A stretch of DNA of 64,000 nucleotides from Pristiophorus japonicus. Lineage: Eukaryota. The notes under the pieces are model-generated. The model ran no database searches, was not told the origin of the DNA, and saw only the letters and a list, made by a program, of their open reading frames with translations. The position numbers and the translations under genes are program-made. Positions 1-64,000 of the stretch are shown here, in pieces (the first letter of the stretch is position 1; each line of letters opens with the position of its first letter). Where the stretch lies: the NCBI RefSeq assembly GCF_044704955.1, contig NC_091999.1:10292001-10356000 (forward strand), written 5' to 3'.

Positions 1-1549
1 AAGACTGTAGGATGCAGGCCATCTGGTAAAGTGGACTTATCCACATTTAGTCCCATTAGTTTGCTGGAAGAGCCAATGGTATTTATTTCTGTTTGCAGCC
101 AGAGATTAGACGTAGATTTTTAGAATGATAGAAAGGCTTGAGCGGATAAATTAGCGACTGCTAAATTTCTACTGCTTTATTATGTTTGGATACAGAAATA
201 AATATAATCAATTTTGTCTCCATTTTCAAAATTAATAACATGTATAATAACATGTTCTCCTTTAGGATAAATGATCCTACTTCACAATGTCGCTTATTAG
301 CCGATTTGAGGAATTGGTCATAAACAACCTACTGAATCAAGGAATACTTAAAGAGTTAAATTTCATTTTCTTCCCATTCTTATTCGAAGTCCCATCAACT
401 CTCCGAAAGTATCGAAACAAACAGAAACAAGTCGGGCTGTTCCAGGCCCTTTTAAGAACTGGTATCCCATTGTCACAACCCTGAGTCAGGGGTCACAGAC
501 TGCACCAAATGGGGCTCGTGAGCTCTGCAGGAAACGACTTGTGCCCCTTGACCCTGAATCAATGGAAGAAACAGCCAATCATGACGCTATAACGTGGAAC
601 ACGACTGTGGAGTCATCCACTGCCAGGCACACTGGCAGGCAGCATTGTATGACGTACAGTCCATCATGTTTGTGTGACGTGATACGTTGTGGTTGGTTTC
701 CGTTCATGTACATACAATGGCTCGATTGAAACGAATAGTTACGTCAATTTACACGAAAATAATTTCGGTATCTTAATCGATAAAAGAGAGAAATATACGG
801 TTGTCGCTAGAAAGGTTGCTGAGGTGCGTATGTGTGAACATTTCTCCCAGAGTACAGCGGGACGCGTGTCATAGATAGTGGCTTTATCTCCACCAATGTG
901 AACTGTGGGAGCCGCAGCTCTCCATGGCCTGGACATCAACAGAGCAAATCCGGCAAAAGAAACATTTTTGTCGTGAGAAAAGCAATTCTTTACACAGAAG
1001 CAGCTGATACTGTGCAATAACTACACGAGTTATTTTAATAGGTAAATTGGATATGAGTCGCTAAAGAGGAGTTTAAAGGGTGTGAGGAGCGAGAACGGAA
1101 TTGCAGACTGGATGGACTTATTCACTCCCTGAAACTTACCGAACCCGGTGTCAGTGGAAACAGGACAGCCAAATAAGATGAGACTAGAGTGGAGGACGGC
1201 CCCCGAAAGCGGGTGTAGGGGAAAAGGGATTGACGCAAAGACATAATTTAATCCTCATCTGCACCTATTCCCAAACAATTCCTTCCACTCCCTATTTAAG
1301 AGTCGTTAATGTTTCCCTCCCTTAAACAACTGTCTGAATAAACCTCAGGACACATCATGCCAGAACTCCAGCAGTTTAGAAGAAAAGGAGTGCCGCACCA
1401 GCAAAAAAGCAGGATGGTACTCAGGTCTGATTAGAAATATCTGGAGATGTTCCCCTCGCCAGGAGGAGCCTAAGAAATCCGATGAGGCGGCAAAGGACAC
1501 GCAGTGAAACTTCAGTGAAACAAGGTGCGAAGGTCTGAGGGACAATGGT

Positions 1550-3450
1550 GGGAAAGCAGAGACAGCGTCTAGTGTAATACAAAAAGAGACAGGGTCCAGT
1601 GCATTAATTACTGAGACTGCGTCTAGTGCAATGCAAAAAAAGACAGGCTCTAGTGCAATATAAACAGAGACAGGGTCTCATGTAATATAAGCAGAGACAG
1701 CGTCTAGTGTAATACCAACAAAGACAGGGTCTACTGTAATATAAACAGAGACAGGTTCTATTGTAGTATAAACAGAGACAGGGTCTAGTGCATTAGTAAC
1801 TGCGACTGGGTCTAGTGCAATACAAACAAAGATAGCCTCGAGTGTAATACAAACGGAGACAGGGTCCAGTGCATTAATTACTGAGACTGCGTCTAGTGCA
1901 ATACAAACAAAGACAGGCTCGAGTGTAATATAAACAGAGACAGGGTCGAGTGTAATATAAACAGAGACAGGTCTACTATAATACAAACAGAGGCACGGTC
2001 TAGTGCATTAATAGCTGAGACTAGGTCCAGTGTAATATAAACAGAGATAGGGTCTGGTGCAGCGATAACTGAGCAGAACCTAGTGCAACATCAACAGAGA
2101 CAGGGTCTAGTGAAACATCAACAGATACAGCGTCTAGTGTAATACAAATAGAGACAGGGTCTAATGTAATATAAACAGAGACAGGGTCTAGTGCATTAGT
2201 ACCTGAGACTGGGTCTCGTGCAATACATCAAAGACAGGGTCTAGTGTAATATAAATAGGTACAGCGTCTAGTGTATTACAAACAGAGACAGGGTCTAGTG
2301 TAATATAAACAGAGACACAGTCTAGTGTAATTTAAACAGGGACAGGGTCTTGTGTATTATAAAGAGAGACAGGGTCCAGTGTAATATATACAGACACAAG
2401 GTCTAGTGTAATATAAACAGAGAAAGGGTCTACTATAATACAAATAGAGGCAGGGTCTAGTGCAGCAATAACTGAGCAGGGCCTAGTGTAATATAAAACG
2501 GAACAGGGTCCAATGTAGTATAAACAGAGACAGGATCTAGTGCATTAGTAACTGCGACTGGGTCTAGTGCAATACCATCAAAGACAGGGCTAGTGTAATA
2601 TAAACAGAGACAGCGTCTAGTGCAATATAAACAGAGACAGTATCTAGTGTAATACAAATAAAGAGAGGGTCTAGTGTAATATAAACAGATTCACAGTCTA
2701 GTGTAATATAAACAGGGACAGGGTCTAGTGTAATATTATGAGAGACAGGGTCTAGTGTAATATATACAGAGACAGGGTCGAGTGTAATAGAAACAGAGAC
2801 AGGGTCTAGTGTAATATAAACAGAGGCAGGGTCTAGTGTAATCTAAACAGTTACAGGGCTTGGCGTAATGTAAACAGAGATCGGGTCTGGCGCAGCAAAA
2901 ACTGAGCAGGGCCTAGTGCAACATAATCAGAGACAGGGTCTCGTGTAATATAAACAGTGACAGGGCTTGGTGTAATGTAAACACAGACAGGGTCTGGTGC
3001 AGCAATAACTGAGCAGGGCCCAGTGCAACATAAACAGAGAGAGGGTCTAGTATAATATAAACAGAGACAGGGCCCACTGTAATATAAACAGAAACAGGGT
3101 CGCGTGTAATACAAACAGAGACAGGATCGACTGCATTAATAACTGAGATTGCGTCTAGTGTAATATAAACAGAGATAGGGTCTGTTGCAGCAATAACTGA
3201 GGGGGGCCTTGTGGAACATAAACAGAGACGCGGTCTAGTGTAATATCAACAGTGACAGGCCCTGGCGTAATGTAAACAGAGACACGGTCGAATGCTGTAA
3301 TAACTGAGTTAGGACCTAATTTATTATAAACAGAGACAGGGCCTCGTGTAATATAAACGGAGACTTGGTCTCGTGTAACGTAAACAGATATAGGGTCTGG
3401 GGTAATATAAGCAGTGACAGGGTCCAATGTACTATAAAGAGAGACGTGGC
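1550..3450. repeat. Tandem satellite, ~27-bp unit (aaacagagacagggtctagtgtaatat)
   Basis: Dozens of head-to-tail degenerate copies; explains the DPVSVYITL-repeat ORFs on the minus strand. Confidence 0.95.
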
Positions 3451-3799
3451 AACTTCAACTTAAATCTTGGTGATTCCCTTTGTTTATTTTTAATACCAAG
3501 ACACAACTGATGAAAGAAGCTCCGTCAAAACAACATGAAAACGCACACATTCCAATTCTGTGGAAAAGATGCAGATACAGGGGGTGTGGACCCGACTCAT
3601 GATTACTACTGAATGACTAAACGTTTGAATCTTGATGTGAATGCTGCCATTTAAAATATTTCACTGCGCTTTAGTGATATTTTATAAATTATAAATTATA
3701 CGATCAATGGAGCACCTTGTTGTGTTGAAGCTAGAGATTTAGGCAAATTGGAACAAGTCAGGGAGAGCTAACGGAATACAGTGACAGACACATACACAC

Positions 3800-52409: not shown

Positions 52410-55400
52410 AAAGAAACATAGAAAATAGGTGCAGGAGCAGACTATTCGGCCCCTCGAGCCGACCACGCCTTTCAATATGATCACGGCTGATCATTCAGCC
52501 ACTGTACTCCACCCCAGCCTTCTCTCCATACGCCCTGATCCATTTAGCCGTAAGGATCTAATTCCCTTTTGAATAGATCCAATGAACTGGACTCAAAAAA
52601 CTACTGTGGCAGAGAATTCCACAGGTTCACAACTCTTTTGATGAATCAGTTTCTCCTCATCTCGTCCTATGTGGCTTACCCCTTGTCCTTAGACTGTGTG
52701 CAATGGTTCTGGACTTCCCCAACATCGGGAACATTCTTCCTGCATCTAACGTGTCCAGTCCCGTCAGAATTCTTTATGTTTATAAATTCCAGTGAGTATA
52801 AGCCTAGCCGATCCAATCTTTCCTCCTATGTTAGCCATCCCTGGAATCAGTTTGGTTAATCTTCGCTGCACTCCCTCAAAGGCAAGCACGTCCTTCCTCA
52901 GATTCGGAGACCAAAACTGCACACAATATTCAAGGCTTGGCCTCAGCAAGGACCTGTACAACTGCAATAAAACCTCCCTGCTCCTATACTCAAATACTCT
53001 CGCTATGAAGGCCAATATGCCATGTGCTTTCTGCACCGCCTGCTGTACCTGCATGCCAACTTTCAATGACTGATATACCATGACATCCAGGTCTCGTTGC
53101 ACCTCCCTTTTTCATAATCTGTCAAAATTCGGAAAAAATTCTGGCTTCCTGTTTTTGCCACCAAAGTGAATAATCTCACATTTTTCTACATTATACAAAA
53201 TCTGCCATGCATTTGCCCACTCAGCTAACCTGTCCAATCACATTGCAGCTTCTTAGCATCATCCTCACAACTCACACGACCACCCAGCGGAATGTCACCT
53301 GCAAACTTGGAGATATTACATTCGCATCCTTCCTTTAAATCATTAATGTAAATTGTGAATAGCTGAGGACCCAGCACTCAAACCTGTGCTACCCCATTAG
53401 CCATTCTGAAAAGGACACGTTTATTCCTACCCTTTGTTTCCTGTCTGCCAATCAGTTCTCTATCCACATCAATACATTAGCCCCAACACCATGTGCTTTA
53501 ATATTGCACACTAATCTCTTGTGTGGAACCTTGTCAAAAGCCTTTTGAAATTCCAAATACACCACATCCCCGGATCCTCCCTTGTCCACTCTACTAGTTA
53601 AATACAAAGTAAGGAGGAATTTCTTCTCTCAAGAGGTTGCGAAACTTTGGGATTCTCTACCTCAGAGAATTGTGAAGTGTCGTTCATTGGATGCATTTAA
53701 GGTGGAGATATATACCGATTTTTGAACGATTACGGAGTCAAGGGTTATGGGGATCGGGCGTGGAAGAGGGGTTGAGGCCAGAATCAGATCTGCCATGATA
53801 TTTTTGAATGGTGGAGCAGGCCCGAGAAGCCAATTGGCCTACTCCGACTCCTATTTCTTATTTTCTGATGTTGTTATGTTTTCCTTACTTAATAATTCTC
53901 GTGAGGTCGCTGAGAATCCCAGGATTTATTGGCCATTCCCCAGATTTCCCTTGATAAGCTAATGGTGGTCCTTTTTCTTGGACTGCTGCATTTCTGCTCT
54001 TTGCACCCGTTTGATACAATTGACTGGCTTACTAGGCCACTTCACCGAACTGTCAGGAGATAACTAATGTTGTGTATGACACCGGAGTCCCACAAGGGAC
54101 AGAGGTGGACAAAGCGACAGTTTTCCTGCCCAATTAAGAACGTTGGTGATGTAGTTGGGGTGTTACCACAATCCGAGTTTCACGATTATTTTTACCAACA
54201 ACTGCGTCTTATTTATTTGTAAAACATTTGAATTCAAAATTCTAAACTAGCATAGTAGAAGTTGAACAAGCACACTCTAGATTATTAGCTCACACCTCGG
54301 GATTATTTGTTGAGTAAGAGAAGCAGCACACTACTACACGCCTTAAAACTTCATTTTCTTTGCATCAACCAATAGATATGACATTATCAAGAGTAATATA
54401 AACAGAGAGTTGGTTTAGTGCAGCCATAACTCAGACAGGTACAAATGTAATGTAATACGAGATATTTAGATAGAGACAGATGGAAAGAAATAGATAGAGA
54501 AGCAGATTGAAATGAAGAGAAGAGAGTAAGAGATAATGAGAGAGTGAAACAATGCAAGAAAGAGACAGAGAGAGATACAGAGCAAAGCACAGAGAGAGTG
54601 AGAGCGAGAGAGATACAGAAAAAGGGACATTGTGAGAGACAGAGAGACAGGTAGACAGCGAGATAGGCAGACAGAGACACGAAGAAAATGAGATACATAC
54701 TGTGAGAATCAAATGGAGACGAGAGACACAGAGATAGAGAAAAAAAGAGACAGTGAAATAGAGTGACAGAGAAAGGACCACAGCGAGAGCAACAGATAGA
54801 TGAGCTGAAGAAAAGGTTTTACATCGTTAAACTAAAAAAAGGAAGAAGAGATATCAAATAATTATGAATAAAGACTGGATACAAAGGGTGAGATGGGACA
54901 GGCATGCAAAGAAAGGGCATTGAAAGAAAATGTGCCACAGATGCCGTTGCGCAGTGTATTTCTATTTTAAATGTTCTTTAAATTCACCAGCTAATTACAC
55001 CAGTGACCGTCACCGCTTCTTGTTCAGAATTGTGTTTTATTTGACTTTTAAGAAAGTCCCTGTGAGTCTCACTCTGGAGGCTGAATTATCGCTTCTGTTT
55101 ATCAGCATGAGAGCGCCCTCTGGTGAGCACTGACTGGAATTCTCAGTGTGGGTTTTTGTACGGGCTCCGCCATATATCTGCACCAGTGTGAGGCTCATGG
55201 CACAGAAATACACGGCGGTGTCTGAGAACAAGGCCTTGCTGATCGTTAGCTCGGTAATCTTAGTCGTTTTATGAAACACAGAAGAGAATCGGTCAGTGAA
55301 GTCGGGGTTTCGATTTACTGTCGTTCCAATAAGGTAAAACACGTACTGAGGGTTCTGCCCGTGGTGCTGACTGTACCAGAACACAGAAGGGCTACGATCG

Positions 55401-56030
55401 CTGGTTTTCAAGGTGCAGTTTAGTGTCACATTCCTTTCCTCTTCAACCATCATTTCGAGAGCCGACTGTTCCACTGTGTCTTGTTGGCTCCATTCTAAAA
55501 TGAAATAATAGTAATTGTCATCATCACATTATCAATTTACCAATAATAACATCAGGGGCAGAACTATTATTTATTCAAAGGAAATACTTACTGAGAAGTG
55601 ATATAATGATGAAGAGCGGTGCGAGACGGTTCCACATGATGCTCCCTGAGTCACTAACTCTGCAGTCCTGGAAATTCTCTGTCGGAGCAGCAATACAGAT
55701 CCCTGCTCCACTGCACTGCTGGTCCAACCAATGTGAAGCAGTGAACAGCGACAGCGATCTCTCCAATTACACAGGTCAGGCAAGGCGTGGCAGAGCGACA
55801 GCTGCAAAAGGAAGCTGTGGGCGTGGCTGTCACGTGCAGTGTTTTCATAGGTAGGATCCATCTGTGAGAACAGAATTCAAAATAATGTCTACTTCGCAAA
55901 TTATACAACTCTTCCTCTCGAGAAGAGCTGCGTTAATTTCACATTTATTACAAAATTGGTGGCAAGCAGATTGGCGACATGATGTGCAAAATGATTACAT
56001 TATTCGACAGTTCCCGAAATCTTCAACAGT
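52410..56030 (+). repeat. Recent direct duplicate of ~44200-47724 (CR1 pieces, GA repeat, V gene, promoter)
   Basis: Near-identical sequence, ending at cttcaacagt where the ERV LTR begins. Confidence 0.92.
55191..55637 (-). CDS. TRAV: TCR alpha/delta V segment, apparently functional (leader 55637-55592, V exon 55494-55191)
   Basis: MWNRLAPLFIIISLL; QQDTVEQ..TLNC..FWYSQ..DTAVYFCAM; RSS CACACTG-24-ACAAAAACC at 55190-55151. Confidence 0.9.
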
Positions 56031-56571
56031 TGTCGAGGAAATTTCTAAGTTAAAGTAACTCAAGCGGAGATTTCAGAGTCTTGCTTCAAGAGATTCTTTT
56101 AATATGTACAGGCGAGATATCTCGGAGAGCTGCTTGGTCCTTACCAAGGCAATACTCTCAAATTCTATAGAAACTTGTTCCATCTTTATACAGAAAAAAA
56201 GGAATTTTATCTCTAATTGACACCTACATTATTCAGGAACATTACCAGTTCTAAACAGGGCACAAAGGTCAGTTTACACAGCCCAACAGTATCTTGTCAC
56301 GTCATTATTCAATCTTTTCGAGGGTCAGCAAGATCATCACTAAAAGCCCCTCTTATCAGAGAAATCAGTTTGTCCAGGCAATGGGGGTATCTTAACATAT
56401 ACAAATACCAGATGTACAGCTTTCATGTTATCTGTTCTTTTCTAACAAAGAAGAGACATCAAGTATTTTCTGGCCTTGCAGGATTCTGCAGTCTCAGCAC
56501 AGAATTAAACTTACTAAAAGGAAGAGAGAAATTTAACCCCTTCCTATATCGTGAACTAAAGTTCTTCCACA
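56031..56571 (-). repeat. ERV 3' LTR (~541 bp)
   Basis: TGTGGAAGAA...TTCCTCGACA imperfect terminal inverted repeat; PPT aacaaggagggag immediately upstream; TATAAA 56190-56185; ATTAAA 56103-56098; end matches the break from the paralogous empty site. Confidence 0.85.
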
Positions 56572-56621
56572 ACTCCCTCCTTGTTGATCTTTTATCTTTA
56601 ATGATCAGCATGCTTTCCTTC

Positions 56622-58670
56622 TTAGAAAGAAAAGGGAGGCTCATACCCCTCGGGGTAAGGTCTCATCTCTAAACATTCTTTTTCATTATAGTCATCTAAC
56701 TGTCCCTCTATTCTGTTTAACCTTCCTTTCACGATCACATTTTTCTGCTCTATTTTTTCTACTAGGTTCATTACTTGTCCTAACAGGGATCTTACTTTCA
56801 GCCCCATTCCACAGACAATTAGCAGCAGAATCAGCAAAATTACACCAAGTACTACTATCGGGTGTATTGCCAGTTTTAATACCGCTGTTGCCCTGGGGGA
56901 CCAGCCTAGGAATATATCCCACCAGTGATGCGCTGTTATAGAGGTAACTGTGTTTGCTATTCGTACTAATTGTCCCTTTTTAAAACTCATTTCTATCTCA
57001 AATTGGTGAATATCTCTGCCCCGCTTGGACAATGCCTTTTCTATTTCTTTGTCATTTTGTATTAAATTATGCAGTCGGGTTAAATTAATTGTAGGTGGTA
57101 ATGGTTCAATTCTGTGCACCGTTAAATACTTTTCCACATTTTTCCACTGTCCAAAAGTATAAGTTCTTTTTTCTTCTGGGTTATATAGAGTGTAAACTCC
57201 TTTCACACAAATATTAATAGGAGGTATATATAAAATCCCGTCTAAGTAGACGGGTTTATTTCCTGTTAGGCAAACTTCGTTTTGGCCTATCTCTGAGACC
57301 TCTGTGTCATTGGCTTGTTTTAGTTCCCACTTGCATATTCCTGTCGAGTGCTGTAAAGAACATGGTTCGTGGATGGCGGTTCGGTAAGGACAAACCATCC
57401 CGAATGGCCATTTAACACATCCCCTGTCATGATGTGTTAGATTTCTTTCATCGACCCAGTCCCCTTTAAATTTTGGATACCAAAAGTTCTGTCCGAATAA
57501 TTGGGGTATTACTTGATACTGACACCAAATTTCCTTCTTAGTCATACTTATTATTTCCATTGTGATATTACATCCGTCTATATCACAGCTAGTGTATTTT
57601 TCTTGAGGTTTGAGGGCAAGATCTGGAAACTTATTGATTCCCAGTAATCTTTCCCAGGTCTCAGCGTGGAAAGATAGTATTTTCCTTTCTAACTCGGCTC
57701 TCAATAACTGTCTGATAGTCTCCTTAAACATGCAGCTGGTGTACCAATTTACCCCTTTCTGTTCCTTCATCAGGTTTTCGATTTCCTTTTCTATTTCTTT
57801 ACTTTGCCTCCACGTCATTTTGTCTGTTATGTAGCCAGATACCTGTAGTTGCTGTAGCCCTTCATCCCACGCGTTTCTCAACTCTATACTTTCTCCTATT
57901 AGTCCTCCTACAACCTGGATTTTGTTTTGCAGGGTCTCTATATCTATTGTGTTCAAGGCTCCCATTCCTACTCCTACCCCACCTAATACAGTTCCCAGCA
58001 CGTCTCGCTTTTTTCTCAAGGATCGGTCCAGTGTGACTCCAACACTGGTCGTGTTGCAACCATCCCTCTCCCTTAGCGGATATAGGATTTGTATGGTTAA
58101 ATTTACTATACCTGGGGATCTTACTACCGATATGCAGGTGGTCAATATCCGTTTTAAATGGCCCGGATCTCTGGGGGAATGCCTATTTTTATTATGTGTC
58201 CACTGTTTAATATAGGTTCCCCCATGTAGTATTTTTGTACGGTTCATGCACTTTACCCATCCTCTGTTTTCTATTTTAAAATGACAATCTTCTTCGGGGT
58301 CACAAAACGTGCCATTAGTTTCTTGGCTCTCAGCTATTTCCTTGCTGGTCAGGCATGTCATATGTACCTTCCATTTCAAGGTTATGTTAAATCCTTCCTC
58401 ACTGGTTATTTTCACTTCCCCTGATCTTGGGTCCACCCCTATTCCGCAGGCCTCACACCTTACTGTGAAGTTCCCCACTTTGCAATCCTCTTTTTCCGAA
58501 CATACATAAGTGTCCTGCTGTCCTGCTTTGTCAATCGTGCCCCAGGCCATTTCTCCTTTCCATATTTTACCTTCTTTTATAAACCTTTCTTCTGTTTTAA
58601 CTCTTCCCACTGCCAGAAGGATTAACATACCCAGTGTCCCCTGATAGTTTTGCCAGGAGTCCTTCCTCAT
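56622..58670 (-). CDS. env: Envelope glycoprotein, 682 aa
   Basis: Signal peptide, furin site RKKR (aa 219-222), Gly-rich fusion peptide, Cys-rich ectodomain, Trp-rich membrane-proximal region, TM helix, 58-aa tail. Confidence 0.92.
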   Translation of the reverse strand: MRKDSWQNYQGTLGMLILLAVGRVKTEERFIKEGKIWKGEMAWGTIDKAGQQDTYVCSEKEDCKVGNFTVRCEACGIGVDPRSGEVKITSEEGFNITLKWKVHMTCLTSKEIAESQETNGTFCDPEEDCHFKIENRGWVKCMNRTKILHGGTYIKQWTHNKNRHSPRDPGHLKRILTTCISVVRSPGIVNLTIQILYPLRERDGCNTTSVGVTLDRSLRKKRDVLGTVLGGVGVGMGALNTIDIETLQNKIQVVGGLIGESIELRNAWDEGLQQLQVSGYITDKMTWRQSKEIEKEIENLMKEQKGVNWYTSCMFKETIRQLLRAELERKILSFHAETWERLLGINKFPDLALKPQEKYTSCDIDGCNITMEIISMTKKEIWCQYQVIPQLFGQNFWYPKFKGDWVDERNLTHHDRGCVKWPFGMVCPYRTAIHEPCSLQHSTGICKWELKQANDTEVSEIGQNEVCLTGNKPVYLDGILYIPPINICVKGVYTLYNPEEKRTYTFGQWKNVEKYLTVHRIEPLPPTINLTRLHNLIQNDKEIEKALSKRGRDIHQFEIEMSFKKGQLVRIANTVTSITAHHWWDIFLGWSPRATAVLKLAIHPIVVLGVILLILLLIVCGMGLKVRSLLGQVMNLVEKIEQKNVIVKGRLNRIEGQLDDYNEKECLEMRPYPEGYEPPFSF

Positions 58671-58797
58671 CTTCCTCCCTTTGTTTTCTTCTATAATGCT
58701 CCTGAACCAATTCGTTAAAATAATAGCTTACTAGTACAATAGTAACAGTGATCTACAAGACAAAGACCCAAATTGGTATACAGGCAAGTTCTGACAT
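58597..58797 (-). pseudogene. Putative small membrane accessory ORF (66 codons, one internal TAG) overlapping the env start
   Basis: MSELACIPIWVFVL*ITVTIVLVSYYFNELVQEHYRRKQREEDEEGLLAKLSGDTGYVNPSGSGKS. Confidence 0.55.
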
Positions 58798-58892
58798 CTA
58801 GCTTGATACTTCGGGGTATTATGCTCTTAGTCCAGCCTGTCTCGGTAGAAACAAAAGGGGATGAGTACAGTTCTTTTCGGGGTGTGTCCGCC

Positions 58893-61800
58893 CTAGCTCG
58901 GTATTTCTTCTTCTTGCTGTGTTTCGTCTGGAAGGTAGTATTTACATCGGGTGGCGTGTATCCAATTTGGATGTTTTTCCAGTTTCAGGGCGGTTCTTGT
59001 TGTGAGGATTATCTGATATGGTCCCTTCCACCTAGGAGAAAAAGATTCCTTGTTTAGAGTTTTCACTAATACTTGCTCTCCCGGCCTGAAAGGGTGCATG
59101 TTTCCCTCTGACGGAGGTACTTGGGTCTGTTTTATTCGCTCATGCAGGCTTCTCGCTATTTCACACATGGCCTGAGCATATTTTAGCGACTTTTCGTCAT
59201 TCCAAATTAATGCTACCTTTTCTGCTCCTAGTGGCGGTTTCACACCAGTAGGCATTGGCCTTCCTAATAAGGCTTCATGGGGTGTCAAACCAGTATTTCG
59301 GTTCTTTTGGTTTCTTATGGTATATAGTACCAATGGAAGGGCATCTGGCCATTTTAGTCCTGTTTCTTGACATACTTTAGTAAGGGTGGACTTTATCACT
59401 CCATTGACTCTTTCCACCATGCCTGAGGACTGAGGTTGATACGGTATGTGCAATTTCCACTGGAAACCTAGCGCTTCGGCTAGATTCTGCACTATTTTTC
59501 CTGTAAAATGTGTTCCTCTGTCACTATTGATTCCCATAGGTATCCCATATCTTGGCACTATTTCTTTAAATAGGATCTTCACTACTGTTCGGGCATCATC
59601 CTTCCTTGTTGCATATGCCTCTACCCACCTTGTAAACATATCTACTATTACTAATAGATACTTAAAGCCTAATACTGGAGGCATGTGGACAAAATCAATT
59701 TGCAAATTTTCAAAGGGCATGCTTGGTTGGGGTAGATGGTCATATTCTGCAGGCGTCTTTCCTCTATTGTTTTGTTGGCAAATTTGGCAGGTTTTAGCAA
59801 TTTTCTCAATTATTACTGTTATTCCTGGTGCATACCATTGCGCATTGATAGCATGTATCATCCCTCCTTTGCCCATGTGAGCCTGACCATGAGCTAGGCG
59901 AGACAAGGGCAAAAACAAAGACCTGGGACATACAGTTCGTCCGTCAGGATGGGTCCAGATATTATTTTTTAAAAAACATCCTTGTTTCTCCCATGTTTTT
60001 CTTTCCTGCACTGTAACTTGTTGCTGTGCTATTTCAAGTTGTTGGGCGCTCAGTGTTGGCAGAGGGGAGACTGAGGCTGCCTGTAGGCAGCACGTCTGTT
60101 CCAAAGCGGCTCGTCGGGCCGCCTCGTCGGCCCTCCTATTTCCTATTGATACTTCATCTTCACCAGTTGTGTGGGCTGCGCATTTAATAACAGCAACCCT
60201 TTTTGGCAATTGAATGGCATCTATCAGGTTAAGCACTAATTGTGAGTGCTTAATATGCTTCCCGCCAGAGGTGATGAAGCCTCTGTTTTTCCATAGTTGT
60301 CCAAAATCATGGACTACACCAAATGCATATCTTGAATCGGTATATATATTAGCAGATTGATTTTTAGCTAATATACATGCTCTAGTTAGGGCGAACAATT
60401 CAGCTGCCTGTGCCGAGGTTCCGGGGGGCAAGGCAAATGCCTCAACAATTTCATATGGGTTCACAATAGCATAGCCTGCCAGGAGCAAATTGTCTGATGG
60501 TCTGTGAGACGACCCATCTGTATAAAGAATGAGATCGGGATTGTCCATTGGTTCCGTAAGCAAATCTGGTCTAGGCATGGTAGCCATCTCCACTGTTGAC
60601 AGACAGTCGTGCTGGTCTGGGTCCTCTATTTCTCTAGTGGAGCTGGTAGGAACAAAAACAGCAGGGTTTACTGCAGGCGCACGGCGAAAAGTGTAGTTAG
60701 GGTGTGACAACAGCAGCACCTCGTAGCCTGTCCTTCGGGATGCTGTGAAATGCTGAGTTGCTGCGGAATTCAACAATAACAGCACCGCATGCGCGGTGAT
60801 AACAGTGCACGGATAGTCCAATACAATTGGTACTGATTTTTCCACCATGACCGCAGTAGCGGCTACAGCACGCAGACAAGCAGGCATTCCTCGTACTACT
60901 GGGGGGAGCATTACCGAATAATAAGCAACTGGTCTATTTCCCCCACCATGTTCTTGGGTTAACACTGCTGTTGCGAATCCTTCTTTTTCATTCACATACA
61001 TTTGAAAAGGTTTCGAATAGTTCGGAAGTCCCAATGCTGGAGCGTTAGTAATAGCATTTTTTAACTGTTTAAATGCTTCTTCCCTCTCAGGGGTCCATTC
61101 CACTTTAGGTGGGGCTTCTTTTAGGGCAGCTGATCGTAGAGCCGCATCCCATTCCCGATAGTCGGGGATCCATTGTCTACAGTATCCCACCATCCCTAGA
61201 AAAGATAAAACATCCTTCTTTGTCCTTGGTGTGGGGGTGTTTTGGATGGTTTGAATTCTTTCAGGTCCCAGCTGCCTCTGCCCCTGGGATATACGAAACC
61301 CTAGGTACTGCACTTGGACTTGGCAGAATTGTAACTTTTGCAGTGAAACCCGATGCCCTCTTTCACATAGGTGCTGTAAAAGCTTTATAGAGTCTTGCAT
61401 ACATTCAAACCCGTGGCTGGAGGCCACGAGCAGATCGTCAGCGTATTGTAATAGCACCGACTGATCTGATAATGAGCAGTCCTCGAGGTCTCTTTTTACG
61501 GCTGCCGCATAAACTGCGGGGCTTTCGGTATACCCCTGGGGCAGCCTAGTCCACGTATACTGTTGTTTCTTATACGTGAAGGCAAACAAATATTGACTTT
61601 CCTCCTTTAAAGGGATGGAGAAGAATGCCGAACACAGATCTACTACAGTAAAGACAGTAGCTGTGGGTGGGATAGCGGATAGTATGATGTTGGTGTCCGG
61701 TACCACAGGTGTGATAGGGACTACTATCTTATTTATAGCTCTTAGATCTTGTACAAATCTCCACTCATTTGGTCTATTAATCTTCGGGATAGGCAGTATC

Positions 61801-63041
61801 GGCGTATTACACGGGCTCTGTGTCTTTTTCAGGACGCCTTGCTCTAACAGTGCTAAGATGACTGGCTCTATCCCTTCTTCCGCCTCCGGTGGCAGTCTGT
61901 ACTGCCTTATACTTGGCAATACAGCATTTTTTATCAACTGTACCCTATGGGGCACCGCAGAATAGACTTGTCCAACATGGTTTTTATGTTTAGCCCAGAG
62001 TTCGGGGGACACTTGACTCAGTGCCATTGGTATGTTAGGGCTAGTTTGTCCGGGGGGTTGCTGTTTTTCAAACGTAGCATCGTGCCCTTTTCTCTCCCAG
62101 TGGAGAATTCCTCTGTCACGGGTGATAAATTCTAGCCGTATATCCTGCAGTTCTATCATCGCCCATGGTTGATAACCTGGTCGCTGTCTTTTCTCTTCTA
62201 TGTCTAAGATCATTCCGCCCATGTCTTTAGGTTTTGCTGGGGGCTTTACAGCCAATGTCAGATGGGGTGTCGTATTTTCTTCTTTAAATCGTTTTTGTTG
62301 TAACGGTGTTAGCTCCACGGCCACCCCCAACCCTTCAGATCCGAAATAAATGTGGGGAGTAGCTTCTATTACTTCGTTTTTATTTAAGAACGGTTGCACA
62401 AAGCGCTGATAGTCTTCAGCCCTGTGTCGAGTATACCAGGCTGTACAGTGAAGCTGAACTGCCTCAAAGCTTGTTAAGATGATATACAATAACTCTTTAA
62501 TATTAGGGTCAATTTTAATCTTTAAGTTTTCCACTGCCTCTTTTATCAGGGGGGAGTAGAAGTTGCCACTCAGTTGCCAACTATAAAGGGCAGCACTTTC
62601 TTCATTCTTTTCCTCTTTCTCTCTTTCTATCCCATTAAAGAACTGATGAATGTTATTTGGAGGGATCTCCATAAACATCCCTTCCTTTGTGCAATATATT
62701 GTGGCTCCTAGTTTGCACAAAGTCTGTCTTCCTAATAGAGGGAGAGGCGTTGTCTTAGAGACTATCAGGGTTTCGTCATTAACTTGTTGTCCTTCAATTG
62801 TCAATTTAGTAGGTTCGGATAAAAAATCTTTCAAGGGGACGCCGGCCACACCCATGCTTAAAACAGTGGTGTTGCTTACGGGTAATCCCACAGAGGGCGG
62901 TACAGAGGACATAGTGGCGCCGGTATCCACCAGGAACTTTACATAAGTGTTTCCTACTTTTAGTATTGCTAAGGGATTTTCTTCTATGTCCGTTGATAAG
63001 CGAAGAGTCGCTGCCTGTACCGTTATGCCTCTGGGGCATCC
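58893..63041 (-). CDS. pol: Pro-Pol: protease, 2H-phosphoesterase-like insert, RT, RNase H, integrase
   Basis: FLVDTGA protease, LPQG and YADD RT, YTDGS/AQAAEL/YTDS RNase H, HHCC and D-D-E integrase with GPY; in frame with gag across its TAG. Confidence 0.96.
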   Translation of the reverse strand, partial: GCPRGITVQAATLRLSTDIEENPLAILKVGNTYVKFLVDTGATMSSVPPSVGLPVSNTTVLSMGVAGVPLKDFLSEPTKLTIEGQQVNDETLIVSKTTPLPLLGRQTLCKLGATIYCTKEGMFMEIPPNNIHQFFNGIEREKEEKNEESAALYSWQLSGNFYSPLIKEAVENLKIKIDPNIKELLYIILTSFEAVQLHCTAWYTRHRAEDYQRFVQPFLNKNEVIEATPHIYFGSEGLGVAVELTPLQQKRFKEENTTPHLTLAVKPPAKPKDMGGMILDIEEKRQRPGYQPWAMIELQDIRLEFITRDRGILHWERKGHDATFEKQQPPGQTSPNIPMALSQVSPELWAKHKNHVGQVYSAVPHRVQLIKNAVLPSIRQYRLPPEAEEGIEPVILALLEQGVLKKTQSPCNTPILPIPKINRPNEWRFVQDLRAINKIVVPITPVVPDTNIILSAIPPTATVFTVVDLCSAFFSIPLKEESQYLFAFTYKKQQYTWTRLPQGYTESPAVYAAAVKRDLEDCSLSDQSVLLQYADDLLVASSHGFECMQDSIKLLQHLCERGHRVSLQKLQFCQVQVQYLGFRISQGQRQLGPERIQTIQNTPTPRTKKDVLSFLGMVGYCRQWIPDYREWDAALRSAALKEAPPKVEWTPEREEAFKQLKNAITNAPALGLPNYSKPFQMYVNEKEGFATAVLTQEHGGGNRPVAYYSVMLPPVVRGMPACLRAVAATAVMVEKSVPIVLDYPCTVITAHAVLLLLNSAATQHFTASRRTGYEVLLLSHPNYTFRRAPAVNPAVFVPTSSTREIEDPDQHDCLSTVEMATMPRPDLLTEPMDNPDLILYTDGSSHRPSDNLLLAGYAIVNPYEIVEAFALPPGTSAQAAELFALTRACILAKNQSANIYTDSRYAFGVVHDFGQLWKNRGFITSGGKHIKHSQLVLNLIDAIQLPKRVAVIKCAAHTTGEDEVSIGNRRADEAARRAALEQTCCLQAASVSPLPTLSAQQLEIAQQQVTVQERKTWEKQGCFLKNNIWTHPDGRTVCPRSLFLPLSRLAHGQAHMGKGGMIHAINAQWYAPGITVIIEKIAKTCQICQQNNRGKTPAEYDHLPQPSMPFENLQIDFVHMPPVLGFKYLLVIVDMFTRWVEAYATRKDDARTVVKILFKEIVPRYGIPMGINSDRGTHFTGKIVQNLAEALGFQWKLHIPYQPQSSGMVERVNGVIKSTLTKVCQETGLKWPDALPLVLYTIRNQKNRNTGLTPHEALLGRPMPTGVKPPLGAEKVALIWNDEKSLKYAQAMCEIARSLHERIKQTQVPPSEGNMHPFRPGEQVLVKTLNKESFSPRWKGPYQIILTTRTALKLEKHPNWIHATRCKYYLPDETQQEEEIPS

Positions 63042-64000
63042 CTATGCTGATTGATACGGATTGGGGTTAGAAAAGGAAAATTGAGGGGCTGGTGGAGGTG
63101 GAGGTTCGGAAAAGTTCCCTTGCGACCCTCTATTCTGTTTGGGCGGGCATCTACAGTCGCGAGCCCAATGCCCTATTCTTCCACAATTTCTACACTCATC
63201 TTGAGAGCGATCTCGCTGTGACCACTGTCCTCTTCCTCTTCCTCCACCCCTAAATCCCCCTCGATTCTGCGCCTGCCCTCCGCCTCTCTGCTGGTAATAT
63301 TGACCTGTTGCTTTGGTTTTACTTACGTAATTGAACAATCCCTCCCTGTCCATGTTTGCCAAGACAGTGACTGTCTCTTTCCAGGTTTTTCCTTGCCAAT
63401 CTAAAACTTTAATTTTGTAGGTCTTTGCATGCTGTGGTAACATGCAGTTCAGCAGTGTTTGTACTGCTAAAGGTTCATTCGTATCTAAGGGTATTCCTGC
63501 ATACTCCTCCCAGCTATTTTTCCACCTGGCTGCGAAATCTATCATTGATTCTTCCGCTTTCTGCAAACAGCGAGTAACCTCCCCTATATCCCCATGTTGT
63601 CTAGCCCCTTGTAGAATTGCATTCCGTCCTCTATTCTGTAGCCAGTGTGTTAAAGATTCGTTTCCTTCATTTAGCAAATCATTATTAGCTCTCCAATCCC
63701 CTTCTTCTCCGGGCGGGATATGGAACATATCTTTTACTCCCTGCCAGGAAGATCCGTACGCTGCTTGTAATAATAGTTTAACATCCCCTGGTAGCGGATT
63801 ATAAATTGTACAGGTCTGCTCAAGCCAGTTATGAAATGCAACAGGTTTCTTTACCGGGTTTGGGGCTGCAGAGATCATATCTCTGGCCTCTCCCGGAGAC
63901 CAGGGTTTTAAAACCGCTGTGGTTCCTATCATTACTCGGGGATTTTGGAGGAGGAGGGTAGAGTCGGCTTCTGCCTGAGCTGGGGTTGTTTGTGACCTTA
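63042..64000 (-). CDS. gag: Gag, 5'-partial (capsid and nucleocapsid)
   Basis: Frame open to the window edge; MHR-like QKAEESMIDFAARW; RGG-rich stretch; single CX2CX4HX4C knuckle. Confidence 0.93.
   Translation of the reverse strand, partial: RSQTTPAQAEADSTLLLQNPRVMIGTTAVLKPWSPGEARDMISAAPNPVKKPVAFHNWLEQTCTIYNPLPGDVKLLLQAAYGSSWQGVKDMFHIPPGEEGDWRANNDLLNEGNESLTHWLQNRGRNAILQGARQHGDIGEVTRCLQKAEESMIDFAARWKNSWEEYAGIPLDTNEPLAVQTLLNCMLPQHAKTYKIKVLDWQGKTWKETVTVLANMDREGLFNYVSKTKATGQYYQQRGGGQAQNRGGFRGGGRGRGQWSQRDRSQDECRNCGRIGHWARDCRCPPKQNRGSQGNFSEPPPPPAPQFSFSNPNPYQSA

What the first reader, a model, noticed from the sequence alone, without database searches (positions are those of the whole stretch)
58597..58850. 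Hidden Vpu-like accessory ORF between pol and env of the ERV
Seen: the 222-nt pol-env gap holds an ATG (58797) opening MSELACIPIWVFVL*ITVTIVLVSYYF-NELVQEHYRRKQREEDEEG-LLAKLSGDTGYVNPSGSGKS. This is an N-terminal membrane anchor, a highly charged cytoplasmic segment and a D-T-G motif, overlapping the env start in another frame. It is the first ATG after a pyrimidine-rich candidate acceptor (~58837) and has weak context (tagATGt), whereas the env ATG is stronger (aagATGa). One TAG (58755-58753, one change from TGG) splits the helix, which is why the ORF track misses it. Known: HIV-1 vpu/env has this bicistronic leaky-scanning layout and a DSGxxS degron. Inference: a convergent membrane accessory protein, here either mutated or read through.
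Basis: partly seen in the sequence, partly recalled or inferred. Interest (0 to 1): 0.85.

Follow-up and report, generated by a model that had tools for sequence, protein, structure and literature searches.

The report
Shark retrovirus membrane gene before env
A young shark endogenous retrovirus family keeps a short extra reading frame just before its envelope gene, broken in this copy but open and under selection in most relatives, which likely encodes a small membrane protein made from the envelope RNA, an HIV-vpu-like layout whose function is untested.

Summary
The ORF is real, but this copy is broken. ATG 58797 (-) opens the frame as described, with a stop at codon 15. Of 90 genomic copies matching this site, 59 have a sense codon and 31 the stop, which marks one sublineage, so no readthrough is needed. 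A 51-codon core (N-terminal hydrophobic helix, then a basic/charged tail) is kept in four subfamilies. Its start lies 127 nt before the env ATG in 36 of 39 loci measured, while the upstream spacer varies by frame-breaking indels. Internal-branch dN/dS is 0.46 (p=0.007), terminal 0.99, and the other five frames show no significant constraint. The ATG context is weak and env's strong in all 67 copies scored. The splice acceptor in use lies inside integrase (59032|59031), not at ~58837. The DTG 'degron' is not conserved: it is env's signal-peptide codons read off-frame in one subfamily. No homologue was found, and Vpu (Pfam) is not matched. Verdict: likely a lineage-specific, single-pass membrane accessory gene, co-expressed with env by leaky scanning, in a class I retrovirus with an F-like envelope. 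It is vpu-like in layout only; function untested.

The parts
58597..58797 (-). Small ORF (66 codons in subfamily A; 51-codon core shared by four subfamilies); interrupted in this copy
58753..58755 (-). In-frame stop at codon 15, carried by 31 of 90 copies matching the site; linked to site 58840, so one sublineage
58729..58785 (-). Predicted transmembrane helix (codons 5-23), no K/R before it; dN/dS 0.39 for codons 2-26
58672..58719 (-). Charged juxtamembrane tail (codons 27-42); constraint not significant on its own (0.58, p=0.25)
58600..58644 (-). Subfamily-A-only C-terminal extension holding D-T-G; it is the env signal-peptide coding region read in another frame
59031..59055 (-). Splice acceptor inside the integrase 3' end (pyrimidine tract, AG at 59033-59032, exon starts 59031)
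58942..58947 (-). Met-stop mini-uORF in weak context, formed by integrase codons; first ATG after the acceptor in this copy
56622..58670 (-). env, 682 codons, own signal-like hydrophobic stretch and RKKR site; no Pfam hit, F-protein-like by language-model features (lead)
58893..63041 (-). pol (PR, RT, tether, RNase H, integrase with MLV-type C-terminus), in frame behind the gag stop; RT closest to gammaretroviral RT among solved structures
63042..64000 (-). 3' part of gag (zinc knuckle); gag start, leader and 5' LTR lie beyond the window
56031..56573 (-). 3' LTR, 543 bp, 100% identical to the 5' LTR; 5-bp target-site duplication

Best explanation
This is an accessory reading frame of a young shark class I retrovirus family, interrupted by a stop in this copy but open and under purifying selection in most relatives, and it likely encodes a 51-66-residue single-pass membrane protein (predicted N-out, C-in) that would be translated with Env from one spliced RNA by leaky scanning. 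Shown: conservation, selection, weak ORF start before a strong env start, the acceptor at 59031, and one contig joining an ATG-free leader donor to it. Inferred: translation, topology, and palmitoylation of the helix-end cysteines in B subfamilies. Committed guess for function: it acts through its helix on a host or viral membrane protein to help infectious particles leave or hide, is needed in infectious spread, and is dispensable for copying within the germ line, which would let the stop-carrying sublineage expand.
For: 59 of 90 copies have a sense codon 15; 18 of 20 such copies fetched (of 59) have the full 66-codon frame. Of 61 loci picked by env or integrase motifs rather than by the ORF: 36 full-length, 9 broken, 8 start region deleted, 3 without the anchor motif, 5 identical duplicates. 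ATG-to-env-ATG spacing 127 nt in 36 loci, 124 in 2, 97 in 1, not called in 7, against 11 different upstream spacer lengths. Branch-class codon model on 38 real copies: internal dN/dS 0.46, p=0.0066, terminal 0.99; env frame 1.60, third frame 1.22; antisense frames p>=0.17; holds for codons 5-39 (p=0.017) and on dropping A, B1 or B3. Pyrimidine at -3 and T at +4 for the ORF ATG, A at -3 for env, in 67 of 67 copies. Acceptor use.
Against: Only 41 codons are informative; dropping subfamily B2 removes significance (0.69, p=0.29), and the tail alone is not significant. Constraint is far weaker than on integrase (0.01) or the env start (0.27). About a third of subfamily A carries the stop, in copies with identical LTRs and open gag, pol and env (this one), and a further A-like group is frameshifted (L079, L103, L104, L115). 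No homologue outside this clade. No protein or ribosome data. Weak ATGs from integrase codons precede the ORF ATG. The leader-donor joint rests on one 60-nt contig from a run of unrecorded kind.
Confidence: 0.62

Rival explanations
1. The frame is a regulatory overlapping uORF that dampens Env synthesis; its start, length and overlap matter, the peptide much less.
For: Fixed 127-nt spacing, overlap with the env ATG and a conserved weak start. The codon-15 stop ends the uORF 82 nt before env, which would allow reinitiation, and that allele expanded to 31 of 90 copies. HIV-1 uses elements in the vpu region to tune env (PMC5220186, passages).
Against: Amino-acid-level constraint is strongest in the hydrophobic half (0.39, p=0.0125) and the helix/charge pattern is kept at 59-98% identity; a pure uORF need only stay open.
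Confidence: 0.18
2. It is a true functional analogue of Vpu: it removes tetherin or another immune or receptor membrane protein through helix-helix contact.
For: Same position, size class, predicted topology and start-codon logic as vpu (PMC5220186, passages). Tetherin is reported to predate the split of cartilaginous fish (PMC6002735, passage). Loss in germ-line-amplified copies fits an anti-host role.
Against: No DSGxxS in 10 of 10 aligned copies and DTG only in A; tail only about 25 residues in B; no Vpu Pfam match in 10 of 10 at E<=10. No target evidence.
Confidence: 0.15
3. It is a viroporin or small fusogen, like paramyxovirus SH or FAST-like sORF2, paired with an F-like envelope.
For: Under 100 residues, one helix, basic juxtamembrane patch, helix-end cysteines in B copies; env is F-like by features. 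Viroporin and FAST features from PMC4517115 and PMC11952523 (passages).
Against: Ectodomain about 4 residues, no N-myristoylation motif, shorter than the 63-107 aa sORF2 range; few polar residues in the helix; other families in this genome carry the same env type with no such ORF. Oligomerisation not tested.
Confidence: 0.1
4. It is a chance open frame in a T-rich then A-rich spacer kept for RNA-level reasons.
For: Subfamilies are close (about 90% integrase identity), so shared descent explains much of the likeness; one leave-out test is not significant.
Against: Frame-specific dN/dS below 1 on internal branches only, indels confined to the upstream spacer, shuffle rate <=2 of 2000, and no strong shared RNA fold (-6.4 kcal/mol, 4 of 27 pairs with two-sided change).
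Confidence: 0.1

Closest known systems
HIV-1 Vpu (PF00558 recalled; vpu/env bicistronic mRNA, PMC5220186 passages)
   Same: Small ORF overlapping the env start in another frame, weak start ahead of env on a spliced RNA, N-terminal helix and charged tail.
   Different: No sequence match; shorter; no DSGxxS; class I (gamma/epsilon-like) pol rather than lentiviral; function untested.
Snakehead retrovirus ORF1-3 (52, 94, 76 aa; PMC12193657 passages)
   Same: Fish retrovirus with small ORFs on subgenomic RNAs; ORF1 is of similar length, and the gag-donor splice here would give a 76-codon frame.
   Different: SnRV is a separate clade. The primary paper (PMC190236) is not held, so ORF1's position and hydrophobicity were not checked; equal sizes may be chance.
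sORF2/FAST-like proteins of MDG1 retrotransposons and nackednavirus smORF2 (PMC11952523 passages)
   Same: Small single-pass protein, N-out/C-in, basic patch after the helix, Tyr near the helix end.
   Different: Those have a ~30-residue ectodomain, mostly N-myristoylation, 63-114 aa and occur in env-less elements; this ORF has none of these and sits beside a full env.
Lokiretrovirus Env (PMC7947760 passages)
   Same: Env resembling paramyxo/pneumovirus F (top cluster 0.95, PF00523 on 18% of members; a lead).
   Different: RT here is closest to gammaretroviral RT and integrase has the MLV-type C-terminus; the passages read mention no accessory ORF other than smc.
Epsilon-like ERVs of cartilaginous fish (PMC4422223, part 1 of 2 read; bioRxiv 10.1101/2021.11.23.469661 passages)
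   Same: Class I pol in a cartilaginous fish, gag-stop-pol in one frame.
   Different: The preprint states its epsilon-related class I ERVs had gamma-type env and no accessory gene; this clade has an F-like env and the extra ORF.

Membership tests
Vpu | Sequence match to the Vpu family | tested here: not met
   0 of 10 members match Vpu at E<=10; only scattered weak membrane-protein hits
Vpu | ORF overlapping env start on a bicistronic spliced RNA, weak start codon | tested here: met
   translation itself not shown
Vpu | N-terminal single helix, N-out/C-in, charged cytoplasmic tail | tested here: met
   hydropathy and charge, 10 of 10; AlphaFold gives one helix 6-50, pTM 0.45; prediction only
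   no DSG in 10 of 10 aligned; DTG only in A; one A copy has DSG without the second serine
Vpu | Down-modulates tetherin/CD4, aids release | not testable with these tools
   needs cell assays
FAST / sORF2-like fusogens | ~30-residue ectodomain, N-myristoylation motif, 63+ residues | tested here: not met
   helix starts at residue 4-5, second residue Ser, core 51 aa
FAST / sORF2-like fusogens | Basic patch after the helix | tested here: inconclusive
   3-5 K/R against 1-3 D/E in residues 27-41
Viroporins (SH, Vpu, M2) | Homo-oligomeric pore | not tested
   no complex prediction was obtained; conductance needs experiment
Class I (gamma/epsilon-like) ERV | Gamma-like RT, MLV-type integrase C-terminus, gag-stop-pol in frame | tested here: met
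   no RT tree with named references was built
Lokiretrovirus | RT sister to all other retroviruses | tested here: not met
   RT best matches gammaretroviral RT (E 1e-58) over foamy (1e-37) and Ty3 (1e-23); by similarity, not by tree

The most novel reading that the evidence does not exclude
A shark class I retrovirus independently evolved a Vpu-like membrane antagonist of a host restriction or immune surface protein, in the same place and with the same leaky-scanning logic as HIV-1, and shed it once it spread inside the germ line.
Probability: 0.17. Interest if true: 0.85.

Novelty: new variant of a known kind. Interest (0 to 1): 0.6.

Why it matters
Class I ERVs are usually read as simple gag-pol-env viruses. 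A selected, homologue-free membrane ORF in the vpu position of a very recently active shark lineage would show that this accessory-gene layout arose more than once, and it gives a concrete handle on virus-host conflict in cartilaginous fish. Natural open and stop-carrying copies sit side by side in one genome, so the gene's dispensability after endogenisation can be studied by comparison alone.

Tried and rejected
1) My first idea, that the codon-15 stop is itself the env splice acceptor: rejected, as 59 of 90 copies lack that AG and no joint lies there. The first search (29 of 30 share the stop) was biased toward the window allele. One search had the wildcard misplaced and gave 3 hits. 2) Readthrough: not needed. 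3) Long env leader: env frame closed upstream of 58727 and dN/dS 1.60. 4) RNA structure: weak. 5) Homologue searches: 17 candidates, none at E<=1; 3 profile hits, of which the 2 inspected are repeat-rich proteins and 1 was not inspected; Atlas best 0.76. 6) More distant pol lineages with the ORF in this genome: none surfaced among 150 scored of 79,960 candidates, 30 fetched. 7) Processed copies in B subfamilies: 18 hits, all contiguous with pol; leader-donor processed copy: 1 hit, a donor variant. 8) No RNA holder listed; runs X1-X3 are of unrecorded kind, one study. 9) No fold search: a single helix is uninformative. 10) No complex prediction was obtained. 11) Env: no solved-structure or Pfam match; one homologue, horn shark, 40%. 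12) Literature searches listed no paper describing this ORF; only listings and the passages cited were seen, no supplements, and subscription papers are not held.

Full report
Setting. The finding lies in a minus-strand provirus from window 56031 to about 1.6 kb beyond the window end. Its two 543-bp LTRs are identical and it has a 5-bp target duplication, so the insertion is very recent. gag, pol (1382 codons) and env (682) are open. RT is closest to gammaretroviral RT and integrase has the MLV-type tail, which makes it class I. Env has no Pfam or PDB match, one shark homologue, and F-protein-like features in the Atlas (a lead only). The host is a shark by the env homologue and by unchecked earlier notes on this genome.

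Observation. The translation, the stop at 58755-58753, the 222-nt gap and both start contexts are as stated.

Is the stop typical? The 30 best DNA matches mostly share it (29 of 30), but they were ranked by likeness to the window. A pattern with wildcards at the codon gave 90 places: 31 with the stop and 59 with a sense codon (counted from the listing). Of 20 sense copies fetched, 18 carry the full 66-codon frame. The stop travels with the window allele at 58840 (28 of 28 stop copies scored against 2 of 21 sense copies; one locus dropped for a motif mismatch), so it is one expanded sublineage. Most A copies of both kinds have env deletions.

Conservation. An env motif search found related families. 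Three sister subfamilies (B1-B3, about 90% integrase identity) keep the ORF as 50-51 codons, 59-98% identical in an alignment of 10; 430 places match its start pattern. The ORF-to-env distance is 127 nt in 36 loci, 124 in 2, 97 in 1 and uncalled in 7, whereas the spacer upstream takes 11 lengths that differ by non-triplets. Among 61 loci chosen by env or integrase motifs, 36 are full-length (one with an inverted helix segment), 9 broken, 8 deleted at the start, 3 unanchored and 5 duplicates. Two other pol lineages use the same env type with pol abutting env and no ORF, so the gene belongs to this clade, not to the env.

Selection. Pairwise dN/dS between subfamilies is 0.22-0.57 (0.37-0.82 with transition weighting), lowest of the three frames in 5 of 6 pairs; shared variants fall 17/16/27 on codon positions 1/2/3 (p=0.04). 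A branch-class model on 38 real copies with 127-nt spacing (two with a local inversion left out) gives 0.46 on internal branches (p=0.0066) and 0.99 on terminal branches, as expected if selection acted during viral replication and not after insertion; the other sense frames give 1.60 and 1.22. The helix half gives 0.39 (p=0.0125), the tail 0.58 (not significant), integrase 0.01, the env start 0.27, and antisense frames p>=0.17. Leaving out A, B1 or B3 keeps p<0.02; leaving out B2 does not (p=0.29). The tree was fixed and recombination was not modelled. The evidence is moderate, from 41 codons.

Protein. One strong hydrophobic stretch starts at residue 4-5 with no basic residue before it and 3-5 after it; B copies have 2-3 cysteines at its end, A none. 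This predicts an N-out, C-in signal anchor. AlphaFold returns a single helix. The D-T-G lies in an A-only extension that is the env signal-peptide region read off-frame, so the degron analogy fails. No homologue was found.

Expression layout. The acceptor in use is in integrase: a pyrimidine tract and AG ending at 59032, present in the 18 of 19 copies where the site was found, one of which lacks the AG. One X3 contig joins a gag donor (L032:6705) to it with canonical ends, and three genomic copies carry exactly this deletion, i.e. likely processed copies of a spliced RNA; the contig may therefore come from DNA. One X2 contig ends at this acceptor with 17 letters matching the leader donor of B copies, upstream of the gag ATG; that joint was not found in the assembly. 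The leader between primer site and donor has no ATG in the two loci where it could be read. On such an RNA a scanning ribosome would meet a weak integrase-derived ATG, then the weak ORF ATG, then the strong env ATG. That is the vpu/env logic described in PMC5220186 (passages). Translation is inferred. Nothing supports an acceptor at ~58837.

Verdict. The ORF is most likely a real, lineage-specific membrane accessory gene (0.62), with this copy a natural null. It works like vpu in layout but is not a Vpu family member. A regulatory uORF (0.18), a true Vpu analogue (0.15, a special case of the best reading), a viroporin or fusogen (0.10) and chance (0.10) remain. The paper searches listed under Tried and rejected showed no description of it.

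Noticed in passing
G000:C3:232.76-232.92 Mb (L119): Tandem array of about two dozen B3-type elements, period about 5.35 kb; in the one copy read, a deletion fuses the small ORF's helix in frame to the env C-terminus (199 codons). A similar fusion is in L111 (281 codons).
   Followed up: partly
L133, L135, L136: Three genomic copies lack exactly the gag-donor to integrase-acceptor intron; that splice would give a basic 76-codon Gag-leader frame (47+29 codons), open for 29 codons past the acceptor in all 18 copies read, though this overlaps integrase.
   Followed up: partly
window 56622-58670; L033-L061, L083-L092: The same F-like env type sits behind at least three different pol lineages in this genome, suggesting envelope exchange.
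   Followed up: partly
window 55037-55528: The provirus is inserted next to an immunoglobulin V-set exon in a duplicated (about 8.2 kb) antigen-receptor-like cluster.
   Followed up: no
L065, L072: A short local inversion replaces the second half of the helix-coding region in some B3 copies while keeping length.
   Followed up: no
L031 about 2093-2075: Primer-binding site a few bases behind the 5' LTR; it looks like tRNA-Ser from recall, not tested.
   Followed up: no
window 1461-3507: 27-bp minisatellite array.
   Followed up: no
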